A stretch of 64,000 nucleotides of DNA from Octopus vulgaris. Lineage: Eukaryota. Positions within the stretch are counted from its first letter, which is position 1; each line of letters begins with the position of its first letter. A program made the position numbers and the translations under genes. The stretch lies in NCBI GenBank assembly GCA_951406725.2, contig OX597814.1:123752001-123816000 (forward strand), written 5' to 3'. Positions 14,768 to 18,056 of this stretch are shown piece by piece. The notes under the pieces were generated by a model. It had not been told where the DNA came from. It saw only the letters and a program-made list of their open reading frames with translations, and did not search any database.

Positions 14768-14931
14768 ACGCAGGAGCGGCTGTGTGGTAAGTAGCCTGTT
14801 TACCAACCATATGGTTCCGGGTTCATTCCCACTGCATGGCACCTTGGGCAAGTATCTTCTACTATAGCCTTGGGCTGACCAAAGCCTTGTGAGTGGATTT
14901 GGTAGACAGAAACTGAAAGAAGCCCGTCATA

Positions 14932-14968
<37 letters not shown>

Positions 14969-15192
14969 GAGTGTATATGTTTGTGTGTCTGTGTTTGTCC
15001 CCCAAACATCGCTTGACAATCGATGGTGGTGTGTTTACATCCCTGTAACTTAGTGGTTCGGCAAAAGAGAACGATAAAATAAGTACTAGGCTTACAAAGA
15101 ATAAGTCCTGGGGTCGATTTCCTTGACTAAAGGTGGTGCTCCAGCATAGCCACAGTCAAATGACTGAAACAAGTAAAGGAGAGTAAAAGAGA
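14768..15192 (+). mobile_element. Full-length SINE family A
   Basis: cgcaggagcggctgtgtggtaag...gaaacaagtaaaggagag. Confidence 0.9.
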
Positions 15193-15649
15193 ATACATAC
15201 CTACAAAACACACACACATATATATACCATATATACTCGAGAAATGGTTGATCTCATGTAAAAGTTAACTCCCTATTTTTGGTTAAATAATTAAGTATTT
15301 TCCATAGACCCGGTATAAAAATCAACCCTAGTATTTCATGAACAACAGGACAACATTTGTGGGCCAAGGTACCGTATTATAGAAATAGCACTGTCACAAA
15401 ATTGTGTGGCTATCTTACTGTAGCCTGCTCTATAGGTGGAAAGCTTAGTGCTTACAATTGAATGCTCAGTGCTCATAGTAAAATACTATTTAATAGTGAG
15501 CACTACGCATCTGTTGATGGGAGCTACATTACCATTACTAAAATGCATGCACAGGATATGCTGCAAGCCTTGCATACATCTTGAAGCACAATAAACACAT
15601 GCATCATACTCGTTGTTGTTTAGATAGTGAGAAATGTGTTTCATAAAAA

Positions 15650-16097
15650 GCGGCGAGCTGGCAGAAACATTAGCACACCGGGCAAAATGCTTTGCGGTAT
15701 TTTGTCTGTCTTTTACGTTCTGAGTTCAAATTCTGCCGAGGTCGACTTTACCTTTCATCCTTTTGGGGTCGATTAAATAAGTACCAGTTATGCACTGGGG
15801 TTGATATAATCGACTTAATCCGTTTGTCTGTCCTTGTTTGTCCCCTCTGTGTGTAACCCCTTGTGGGCAGTAAAAAAATAAGAAATGTTAGCACGCTGGG
15901 CAAAATACTTTGTGGTATTTTGTCTGTCTTTACATTCTGAGTTCAAATTCTGCCGAGGTCAATTTTGCCTTTCATCCTTTTAGGGTCAATAAATTAAGTA
16001 CCAGTTATGCACTGGGGTCAATGTAATCAACTTAATCCCTTTGTCTGTCCTTGTTTGTCCCCTCTATGTTTAGCCCCTTGTGGGCAATAAATAAATA
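15650..16097 (+). mobile_element. SINE family B dimer with 14-bp TSD
   Basis: TSD agaaatgtgtttca at 15630-15643 and 16098-16111. Confidence 0.9.
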
Positions 16098-16173
16098 AGA
16101 AATGTGTTTCACAGACAACACTATTGACAAACACTGGCAAACACCACTGTCTAAATTCATGCAAAGGCATGAC

Positions 16174-17076
16174 AGATCTTTTCAGTTTGGTTGCCAGTGG
16201 CTCCAAAAATTAAAGTTTACCAAAAATTTTAATTTGGCATAATAATACACTTGCCCAAACTGAATTGCTGGACATTATTCACATTATTTCCATTATTTAC
16301 ATTCGACAGATATTTGTCCTCATCTTGTTTGTTGTTAATACAACGTTTCAGCTGATATACCCTCCAGCCTTCATCAGGTCAAATATCCGTCGAATGTAAA
16401 TAATGTAAATAATGTACATAATTCTTCATCTCTTAAATATAGAACTGAATTGCTGGAGTTATTTAATTTTTTCCAGAAAAATGTTTTAAAAAAGTTATAG
16501 AGGTTTAAGATTGGATCATTTTCACCCAGTCAGGAAACAGGATTTGGAAGCTGTTATTTTGTGCTTGACTGCACATTTTGTCGTCAACATCATAAAAATA
16601 GCACATGTTGTCAAGATTTGTAAACAACACATGTTACGTCTCTGGTAATTTTCTTTCATGTAAATAAATGTTTATATTAATTACAAAATTTGCCAGCAAA
16701 ATCTTTTAAAATGATGATGTTCCAAATGATATACCATGCTTCCTCGCAAATAAAAGACTTTTCAAAGACTGCTGTCAACACATGCTTCCTCACAGACTTT
16801 TCAAAGACCGTTACTATGGCAACAAGCAAATGAGTTCTCATGTTTCCGTTTGTTACTATTGAAGCAGACATGAATGTGTCTGTGGCCTACGATTGGCTAA
16901 AATTACCAAAATGTTCAAACTTTAATTACTAATAACTCTTTATTTATTGATTTATAGCTAAAATTACTTTCACATCATTAATTAGCCTATAAAAGTGTAT
17001 CATTACACTGAATATGAAATCAATTCAAACAGAAACTTGATGCTGGAAGCCGCTGGCAACCAAACAGAAAAGATCC
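16174..17076. mobile_element. Non-autonomous TIR element with 8-bp TSD (Merlin-like)
   Basis: ~32-bp TIRs (a/g)gatcttttc.gtttggttgccag.ggct; TSD (g/a)gcatgac at 16166-16173 and 17077-17084; empty site ggcatgac|tt seen in the paralogous repeat near 17273. Confidence 0.8.
16273..16442 (-). mobile_element. 170-bp hammerhead-containing mini-element with 15-bp TSD
   Basis: TSD aactgaattgctgga at 16258-16272 and 16443-16457; internal 36-bp inverted repeats; minus strand CTGATGA AGGCTG...CAGCT GAAAC GTT. Confidence 0.8.
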
Positions 17077-17786
17077 AGCATGACTTTGATAAGCCTAAAC
17101 ACATTCAATTAATTGCTAGATCAGTGGTTCCTATGTGACTTTTATATTTTCCTCATCTCCATGTACAAGAAACACATATTATACGCTCGTCTATTTACAT
17201 GGCGAGAAACATGTTTCACAGATAGCACTGTCGAAGAACAACAACAAACACCACTGTATGAATTCGTACAGAGGCATGACTTCGGTAAGCCTAAAAACAT
17301 TTAATTAAACACTAGATCAGTGTCTCCTATGGAATCCTTCAACATTTTTTGCCATGGAACCATTCAACATTATTTTTAAAAACATCAAACCCCTGATAAC
17401 TTTCAGGGAACCCCGGGGTTTTGCAGGACACATTTTGGGAATCCCTGCTCCAGATTCACAACTCTACACTACATTATGGACATTTACTGGTAACTGCGCA
17501 TGAGAGCGACAGTCTTGATTATAGGTTTCATTATTTACTAGGACACATGTTTTGTTGTATAGAATTGGCAATATTATTATAATTCATTGTGTTTTTGTTT
17601 TTATTCACTTAGAGATCAGTTGGGCTTCTGTTGCTGATATGGTAGATCATTCAAGCTTGAATTTTAGCCCCACAAAAGTAGTATCCATGTAATAGTTGAG
17701 CCCATCAATTTGACCTTAAAAAATGGTCTAAAAAGTTCGACTTTTACATGAGTATATACAGTATATATGTTATATGTATGTATGTA

Positions 17787-18020
17787 TTCTTTTATTTTTT
17801 TACTTGTTTCAGTCATTTGACTGTGGCCATGCTGGAGCACCACCTTTAGTCGAACAAATCAACCCCAGAAATTACACTTTGTAAGCCTAGTACTTATTCT
17901 ATCAATCTCTTTTGCCGAACCACTAAGTTACGGGGATGTAAACACTCCAACATCAGTTGTCAAGTGATGGTGGTGGGGGGCTCAAACACAGACACACAAA
18001 TACATACATGCATACATACA

Positions 18021-18056
<36 letters not shown>

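What the first reader, a model, noticed from the sequence alone, without database searches (positions are those of the whole stretch)
16258..16457. 170-bp ribozyme mini-retroelement with a perfect 15-bp TSD
Seen: an exact aactgaattgctgga duplication flanks a 170-bp insert. It consists of 36-bp inverted arms (16281-16316 and 16380-16415) enclosing an intact CTGATGA...GAAAC core on the minus strand, plus a short unique end. It has no tRNA head, no poly(A) or simple-repeat tail and no ORF, and it sits inside a TIR element, so both boundaries are clear. Inference: a minimal non-autonomous unit mobilised by target-primed reverse transcription, resembling a Penelope 'inverted pLTR only' insertion. 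Stem I appears truncated by the inversion.
Basis: partly seen in the sequence, partly recalled or inferred. Interest (0 to 1): 0.72.

Follow-up and report, generated by a model that had tools for sequence, protein, structure and literature searches.

The report
Cut-down, head-to-head Penelope retrotransposon insertion
This 170-base insert is not a separate ribozyme mini-element but two cut-short end pieces of a very common protein-coding Penelope-type jumping gene joined head to head, and the one unusual thing lies outside it: the parent's end repeat opens with a tRNA-like segment that likely acts as its promoter.

Summary
Observation confirmed: exact 15-bp duplication, 34/36-bp arms, hammerhead core, TIR host; 20 of 24 other host copies show the empty site, 0 of 24 the insert. 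The 'mini-retroelement' reading fails. Both arms are pieces of the pseudo-LTR of an autonomous Penelope/Poseidon-type element (RT + GIY-YIG-type ORF, ~2.7-kb unit); the long arm encodes its N-terminus. Of 89 copies picked on the ribozyme core, 52 are head-to-head pairs, 114-1141 bp, with fixed outer ends and variable inner joins; this copy's junction 21-mer is exact only here. The ribozyme keeps 2 of 5 stem-I pairs: likely dead. Five duplication bases equal the element's own end, so 10 bp + 175 bp fits equally. Family-level surprise: the parent's repeat opens with a tRNA-like A/B-box segment; 41 of 54 arms reaching it end at its 5' edge, and the sense strand lacks TTTT (P 0.01-0.04), suggesting Pol III transcription. 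This scan noted that on other DNA before.

The parts
16258..16272 (+). left copy of the target-site duplication (15 bp; or 10 bp, 16263-16272, if the five shared bases are given to the element)
   Evidence: exact repeat; present once in 20 of 24 empty host copies
16273..16379 (-). long arm: 5'-truncated pseudo-LTR of the parent Penelope, from 2 nt before the hammerhead core to the 'short' outer end inside the 9-nt repeats; reads as the N-terminal ~35 codons of the parent ORF
   Evidence: 93% to family body; 7 mismatches in 106 to the family majority; 9 of 21 residues match residues 19-39 of the 847-aa relative P0005, E 3e-4 pairwise
16340..16379 (-). minimal type I hammerhead motif, stem I reduced to 2 bp; likely inactive
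   Evidence: pair listing and ensemble; features of PLE minimal hammerheads in PMC4209133 (passages); no Rfam hit
16380..16442 (+). short arm: second 5'-truncated pseudo-LTR copy running to the 'long' outer end; 16380-16415 mirrors the long arm
   Evidence: alignment with tandem copies; 2 mismatches in 68 to the family majority
16416..16447 (+). Penelope 'tail': stretch between the two outer ends, present on one arm only; its last 5 bp overlap the duplication
   Evidence: 43 of 52 two-armed copies pair one long with one short end; tail described in PMC8557442, PMC3846280, PMC11167929
16443..16457 (+). right copy of the target-site duplication
16174..17076 (.). host non-autonomous TIR element (~0.77-0.9 kb in other copies, 8-bp flank duplication, hAT-like by inference) into which the Penelope piece inserted

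Best explanation
The insert is a head-to-head pair of 5'-truncated pseudo-LTR pieces of an abundant autonomous Penelope/Poseidon-type retrotransposon, likely made in one target-primed reverse-transcription event and likely dead since. Shown: identity of both arms with the parent's end repeat and ORF start; the duplication and empty site; two fixed outer ends about 30 nt apart and variable inner joins across the family; loss of hammerhead stem I. Inferred (from PAc biochemistry, PMC11167929): the element's RT-endonuclease nicked both strands 10-15 bp apart; each 3'-OH primed reverse transcription internally on parent RNA, one at the distal start site (possibly helped by 5 bp of pairing with the target) and one at the proximal site; the two cDNAs stopped after about 65 and 107 nt and were joined at their growing ends over a near-match (ATCAGG/ATGAGG); repair filled the gaps. 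The hammerhead is a passenger of the pseudo-LTR, not the engine of this copy. The parent's repeat starts with a tRNA-like A/B-box segment, absent from this copy, that likely serves as its promoter (about 0.5).
For: Family: 2963 first-look candidates; 2892 exact matches of a 27-nt core, control 0; roughly 30,000 arms (6 of 67 independently picked arms carry the exact core; wide error). Parent: in 27 of 30 loci picked on the endonuclease-coding DNA the repeat body follows downstream (four of the 30 are near-identical duplicates on one contig); in 6 of 30 loci picked on ORF 5' DNA a hammerhead-side repeat piece of 90 nt or more runs straight into the ORF; L322 and L324 span repeat-ORF-repeat over ~2.7 kb. 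RVT_1 at E 1.4e-10; 131 homologues with RVT_1/HTH_animal/GIY-YIG, among them an 836-aa Anolis protein at 33% over 98%; Atlas clusters with HTH_animal + GIY-YIG at 0.96-0.97. Architecture: 52 of 89 core-picked loci are two-armed; 43 of 52 pair a long and a short end; 20 of 52 have an exact duplication >=9 bp against 1.3% of 600 mismatched flank pairs; sizes 114-1141 bp. Eleven other short pairs all have different inner joins. Same layout (inverted pLTR, 31-bp tail, 9-10 bp TSD, pLTR holding the first ORF codons) in Adineta Pen2a (PMC3846280).
Against: No copy with an intact full-length ORF was found among those fetched (longest stop-free stretches 134-217 aa in L322/L324; 362 aa in L229), so autonomy is inferred from decayed copies and relatives. 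Pfam GIY-YIG did not hit the endonuclease region directly (0 of 3 fragments); the assignment rests on homologues and visible motifs. Two other loci (L333, L336) have nearly the same inner junction. 34 of 89 loci show no inverted arm. The order of priming and joining steps is not testable from sequence; PMC3846280 favours self-priming on an antisense template instead.
Confidence: 0.92

Rival explanations
1. One reading: a self-standing 170-bp non-autonomous ribozyme element (retrozyme-like) that is copied as a unit by Penelope proteins.
For: Clean duplication and empty site; stable hairpin; two other loci with nearly the same inner junction; the short arm keeps both RT-start regions, so re-mobilisation from a read-through transcript is conceivable.
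Against: Junction 21-mer exact only here, 6 places at <=2 mismatches of which 3 are unrelated DNA; L333 and L336 differ in outer ends and lack this copy's shared TCGA variant; sizes form a continuum; not tandem, one ribozyme only, stem I 2 bp, core paired away in the ensemble.
Confidence: 0.03
2. The template was not a full-length element RNA but a short SINE-like Pol III transcript started at the tRNA-like segment of some pseudo-LTR copy; the insert is a truncated copy of that short RNA. Same insertion chemistry, different template.
For: 41 of 54 arms that reach the tRNA-like segment end within 14 nt of its 5' edge (per-base end rate 0.10 against 0.002-0.004 elsewhere), only 13 of 140 arms go on into the ORF.
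Against: The insert ends long before the point where the two templates differ, so it cannot tell; the same edge is also the expected 5' end of a full-length element (L321) and carries a 5-bp hairpin that could stop or fold back RT.
Confidence: 0.5
3. The inversion arose by fold-back self-priming (on an antisense template, as proposed in PMC3846280) or by later deletion from a longer palindromic insertion, not by two primings.
For: Junctions at the tRNA-like edge often carry a short palindrome; long palindromes are deletion-prone (own knowledge); a 3-bp near-microhomology sits at this junction.
Against: This junction has no palindrome; fixed long/short outer ends on opposite arms match the two RT start sites and both-strand extension measured for PAc.
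Confidence: 0.25
4. Assembly artefact (a fold-back chimera of long reads).
For: Short perfect inversions are a known long-read artefact (own knowledge).
Against: Arms differ at 2 of 36 sites, ends are family-specific, a duplication flanks it, and the same layout with own duplications recurs in 20 of 52 pairs.
Confidence: 0.01

Closest known systems
Penelope/Poseidon-clade PLEs: Poseidon PAc of Anolis carolinensis (PMC11167929, parts 1-2 of 4 read)
   Same: Single RT + GIY-YIG-type ORF in partial tandems; hammerhead overlapping the ORF start; two internal 3' ends that define a ~30-nt tail inside the first 50-60 codons; both target strands used.
   Different: Here the ORF starts ~38 nt before the core instead of at stem II; a tRNA-like segment and (AAT)n precede it; a modest excess of target-element microhomology may exist (5 of 17 duplications overlap >=3 bp), whereas PAc primes without homology.
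Adineta vaga Pen2a/Pen2/Pen3 and D. virilis Penelope inverted-pLTR insertions (PMC3846280, PMC2377424, PMC8557442; passages)
   Same: Head-to-head inverted pLTRs, optional 30-40 bp tail on one end, 8-10 bp duplications, solo pLTRs, pLTR containing the first codons.
   Different: Those pLTRs carry Pol II-type (TATA/Inr or Inr/DPE) signals; this copy has no ORF body between the arms.
Animal non-LTR retrozymes (bioRxiv 10.64898/2026.07.22.740005, part 1 of 5 read; PMC7761336, passages)
   Same: Short, non-coding, type I hammerhead, related to PLE pLTRs.
   Different: Retrozymes are direct tandem repeats with two or more intact ribozymes that yield circles; this is one inverted pair with one broken ribozyme.
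Cassandra/Helenus/Ajax TRIMs (PMC10886601, abstract only) - analogue for the parent's repeat
   Same: Small-RNA-derived Pol III-type promoter placed inside a terminal repeat.
   Different: Those are non-autonomous LTR elements; here it sits in the pseudo-LTR of a protein-coding PLE.

Membership tests
EN+ Penelope-like element (parent family) | PLE-type reverse transcriptase ORF linked to the repeat | tested here: met
   RVT_1 E 1.4e-10; homologues 800-850 aa incl. Anolis protein; linkage in L322, L324
EN+ Penelope-like element (parent family) | C-terminal GIY-YIG endonuclease | tested here: inconclusive
   No direct Pfam hit; homologues over 97% of the query carry PF01541, Atlas clusters 13-26% GIY-YIG, weak match to this genome's Pfam-positive GIY-YIG ORF, E 0.03. 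Likely met.
EN+ Penelope-like element (parent family) | Pseudo-LTRs from partial tandems, direct or inverted | tested here: met
EN+ Penelope-like element (parent family) | 30-40 bp tail on one end of the insertion | tested here: met
   43 of 52 pairs long + short; RNA-read loose ends at both termini
EN+ Penelope-like element (parent family) | Minimal type I hammerhead in the pLTR (bulge after G8-A9, palindromic helix III) | tested here: met
   69 of 89 copies keep a 5-bp stem I, 66 of 89 the CUGANGA core; features from PMC4209133. No Rfam hit; activity untested.
Penelope/Poseidon clade specifically | RT phylogeny within the clade | not tested
   No tree built; label rests on domain order, ORF size, hammerhead-ORF overlap and similarity to the Anolis protein
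Non-LTR retrozyme | Direct tandem units, each with an intact hammerhead | tested here: not met
   one inverted pair, single ribozyme, stem I 2 bp
Non-LTR retrozyme | Self-cleavage and circular RNA | not testable with these tools
   no read pile-up at the cleavage site in two RNA runs, which is uninformative for such libraries
tRNA-derived SINE (this insert) | tRNA-like head with A and B boxes | tested here: not met
   absent from the window; present in the parent repeat
Pol III-transcribed element (parent) | tRNA-derived A/B boxes at the 5' end and no internal T-run terminators | tested here: inconclusive
   A/B-box matches and best similarity to two tRNA-Arg genes of this genome, z 6.7 and 5.4 but no Rfam tRNA hit; 41 of 54 arm ends at the edge; 0 TTTT runs, P 0.014-0.04; Pol III occupancy not testable here

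The most novel reading that the evidence does not exclude
The parent is a protein-coding Penelope retrotransposon whose promoter is a captured tRNA gene: RNA polymerase III reads the whole 2.7-kb element (its sense strand has purged T-run terminators), and every downstream pseudo-LTR sheds short SINE-like RNAs that the element's internally priming RT copies, giving tens of thousands of head-to-head ORF-less insertions of which this 170-bp piece is among the smallest. LINE and SINE would then be one sequence.
Probability: 0.45. Interest if true: 0.65.

Novelty: new variant of a known kind. Interest (0 to 1): 0.33.

Why it matters
The insert itself is ordinary: a dead, doubly truncated Penelope copy, of use mainly as a clean record (empty site known) of the two-ended Penelope integration reaction, which is still unresolved. 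The class 'new variant' is given for the parent family, not for the 170 bp: a tRNA-like segment built into the pseudo-LTR of a coding PLE was not found in seven literature searches (open-access full text only; Repbase, Dfam and paper supplements were not seen and may already hold the family). If Pol III drives it, it shows a route from an autonomous element to SINE-like progeny without recombination and raises the question of how an uncapped RNA is translated. Tens of thousands of two-armed copies also give a large natural data set for testing both-strand priming.

Tried and rejected
(1) Partner hunt by Pfam GIY-YIG: the 781-aa family found shares no sequence with this repeat in 30 + 20 loci; it served later as a control. 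(2) 'tRNA-headed SINE with a separate Penelope partner' was my first reading; dropped when ten copies ran 5' into endonuclease-coding DNA. (3) A GT..AG intron over the tail: dropped, since another frame is open from an upstream ATG through ribozyme and tail, matches P0005, and no such joint was among those listed (42 joints not shown, few reads cross the junction). (4) Rfam: no hammerhead or tRNA hit. (5) Folding as a test of activity: does not discriminate, since stem I has probability 0.001 even for the intact family motif. (6) RNA runs: no RNA holder listed by index; two raw RNA runs of a possibly different species cover the repeat on both strands about equally with no start/end pile-ups: no evidence on promoter or cleavage. 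(7) Contigs of four public runs on this locus: one 48-nt piece crosses the right junction without differences but with only 18 nt on one side, below the tool's bridging rule; polymorphism undecided. (8) Microhomology priming: 8 of 17 duplications overlap the long end by >=1 bp, 5 by >=3 bp, no formal null: suggestive only. (9) PDB search gave only distant RTs. L158 was dropped from the 90 pattern loci as a duplicate of L157; 29 of 140 arms end in the (AAT)n tract and could not be placed, and are left out of the 54.

Full report
Check of the observation. The 15-mer at 16258-16272 recurs exactly at 16443-16457 and nowhere else in the 64-kb window. The arms 16281-16316 and 16380-16415 are 34 of 36 complementary and the minus strand folds far below shuffles (z -8.7). 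The hammerhead core is on the minus strand at 16377-16371 and 16349-16345. Rfam lists no hammerhead here or on an intact family copy, so the call rests on the minimal-hammerhead features of PMC4209133 (passages): bulged base after the core, G10.1 pair, palindromic helix III. The host is a TIR element at 16174-17076 with 28 of 32 matching TIR bases and an 8-bp flank duplication (7 of 8); 3 of 5 complete host copies have an exact 8-bp duplication. Of 24 other host copies, 20 run from the upstream flank through a single copy of the 15-mer into the downstream flank, and none holds the insert. The insertion is real and younger than its host.

What it is a piece of. The insert finds 2963 first-look candidates in the genome (40 scored); a 27-nt core occurs exactly 2892 times, the reversed control 0 times; 6 of 67 arms picked on other grounds carry that exact core, which points to roughly 30,000 arms. 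Walking outwards, the repeat reads: tRNA-like ~75 nt, (AAT)n, ~50 nt, hammerhead, ~100 nt to a 'short' end among 9-nt repeats, ~30 nt more to a 'long' end. Ten copies continued 5' of the tRNA-like part into coding DNA. Searching with that DNA gave 30 loci; 27 carry the tRNA-like part right after the stop codon and 27 the repeat body (four are near-identical duplicates on one contig). Walking further 5' gave 30 more loci, 6 of which have a long repeat piece running directly into the ORF; L322 and L324 span repeat-ORF-repeat over ~2.7 kb. The ORF has RVT_1 (E 1.4e-10) and 131 homologues with RVT_1/HTH_animal, some GIY-YIG, including 800-850-aa proteins and an Anolis protein (Atlas agrees). Pfam GIY-YIG did not hit the fragments directly, no tree was built and no intact ORF was found, so 'autonomous Penelope/Poseidon' is well supported but partly inferred. 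The frame opens at an ATG ~38 nt before the core and reads through ribozyme and tail; the window's long arm translates without stops in that frame and matches residues 19-39 of the 847-aa relative P0005. So both arms are the pseudo-LTR, which is also the ORF's first codons, as in PAc (PMC11167929) and Pen2a (PMC3846280).

Is the 170-bp form a family? No. I took the first 90 loci on contig C1 from the exact-core list (89 after one duplicate), which is unbiased as to layout though biased to copies holding the core. 52 of 89 are head-to-head pairs with 3' ends outward, 34 show no inverted arm, 3 a partial one. Of the 52, 43 pair one long with one short end; 20 have an exact duplication of 9 bp or more (1.3% of 600 mismatched flank pairs); lengths run from 114 to 1141 bp without a peak at 170. 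Eleven other short pairs all differ in inner join. The junction 21-mer is exact only here; at up to 2 mismatches there are 5 more places, 3 unrelated and 2 (L333, L336) with nearly the same join but other outer ends, flanks and variants, best read as recurrences at a short near-match.

Boundaries. In tandem copies the element continues with the same five bases that open the duplication. So this site is either a 10-bp duplication with a 175-bp insert or a 15-bp one primed with 5 bp of pairing; sequence cannot tell.

Ribozyme. The family motif has a 5-bp stem I (kept in 69 of 89 copies); this copy keeps 2 bp, through truncation and one substitution, and in the folded ensemble five of seven core bases are paired away. 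Folding does not favour stem I even in the intact motif, so it is no test of activity; minimal PLE hammerheads work poorly and as dimers, and PAc integration does not need cleavage. The copy is likely catalytically dead and the ribozyme is a passenger.

How it most likely formed. Shown: duplication, empty site, two fixed outer ends, variable inner ends. Inferred from PAc, which nicks and extends both strands and starts reverse transcription at two internal sites that bound the tail: both nicks primed on parent RNA, one at each start site; the cDNAs stopped after ~65 and 107 nt and were joined. Because the arms overlap in template sequence, classical non-overlapping twin priming (recalled for L1) does not fit; two RNAs or strand displacement are needed. 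Self-priming on antisense RNA (PMC3846280) or later deletion from a longer palindrome remain possible (0.25).

The family-level oddity, outside this window. The parent's repeat opens with a tRNA-like segment: A- and B-box matches, in register with tRNA, best against two tRNA-Arg genes among 25 distinct tRNA sequences from 30 loci of this genome (z 6.7, 5.4; other isotypes follow closely), but without an Rfam tRNA hit. Of 140 arms, 29 end in the (AAT)n tract and cannot be placed; of 54 that reach the segment's 5' edge, 41 end within 14 nt of it, an end rate of 0.10 per base against 0.002-0.004 elsewhere. The majority of 8 long copies has no TTTT run in 2.5 kb; over the 2.25-kb coding part P is 0.014 (base shuffle) to 0.04 (codon shuffles), while four copies of this genome's other PLE, of equal T content, have 7-9 runs each; two neighbouring LINE ORFs have 1-2, as expected by chance (majority versus single copies is not a like-for-like comparison, and single decayed copies have 1-4 runs). 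This suggests Pol III transcription; a Pol II start at the same place or a hairpin-induced stop are not excluded. RNA reads did not bear on it. Seven searches of open-access full text found no such PLE; the nearest analogue is the Helenus/Cassandra TRIMs (PMC10886601, abstract). Eight earlier notes of this scan on other DNA of this genome reached the same family reading (seen after my own reading was set); they are not independent support. The host animal is likely an octopod (recalled repeat motifs; not tested).

Papers as seen: PMC11167929 parts 1-2 of 4; PMC13282606 parts 1-2 of 3; bioRxiv 10.64898/2026.07.22.740005 part 1 of 5; passages of PMC8557442, PMC3846280, PMC2377424, PMC4209133, PMC7761336, PMC8967140, PMC6962438; abstract of PMC10886601. 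No supplements were read; repeat libraries in them, Repbase or Dfam may already name this family.

Verdict. Interest 0.33, nearly all of it owed to the parent's tRNA-like promoter (0.45 likely, 0.65 if true).

Noticed in passing
window 16174-17076 within ~15630-17330: Three-level nesting: the Penelope piece sits in a ~0.77-kb TIR element (8-bp duplication, hAT-like by inference), which itself interrupts a ~196-bp-unit repeat (16098-16173, 17078-17135, 17205-17331 are related).
   Followed up: partly
window 14930-15177 and 17799-18046: Inverted pair of an abundant 250-bp repeat (82% alike), probably two independent SINE-like copies; inside them 15228-15300 and 17700-17765 look like decayed TIRs of another DNA element.
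   Followed up: no
L116-L119 (e.g. L116:905-4587): A second, young PLE family with many intact 781-aa RT + GIY-YIG ORFs preceded by a separate 330-380-aa ORF, a long 3' UTR with tandem subrepeats and no clear canonical hammerhead.
   Followed up: partly
L220:790-990: An inverted arm joins the element's long end directly to an internal RT-coding fragment, i.e. a template jump of over 1 kb within one arm; similar internal jumps in L195, L171.
   Followed up: no
L233:2109-3524, L238, L248, L253, L155, L159 (oriented): Other retroelements (an RTE/CR1-like LINE and further repeats) have repeatedly inserted into the (AAT)n tract of this Penelope's repeat, a shared target that breaks many copies.
   Followed up: no
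L129 near 3263: A different hammerhead-like motif in another abundant repeat next to a GIY-YIG fragment, probably the pLTR of a third PLE family.
   Followed up: no
family repeat, 9-nt units at window 16273-16298 and 16394-16411: The region of the short RT end is a 9-nt repeat of variable copy number that keeps the reading frame (Asn-Val-Asn); RNA reads show 3- and 9-nt indels here, recalling the Asn-rich inserts of rotifer Penelopes.
   Followed up: partly
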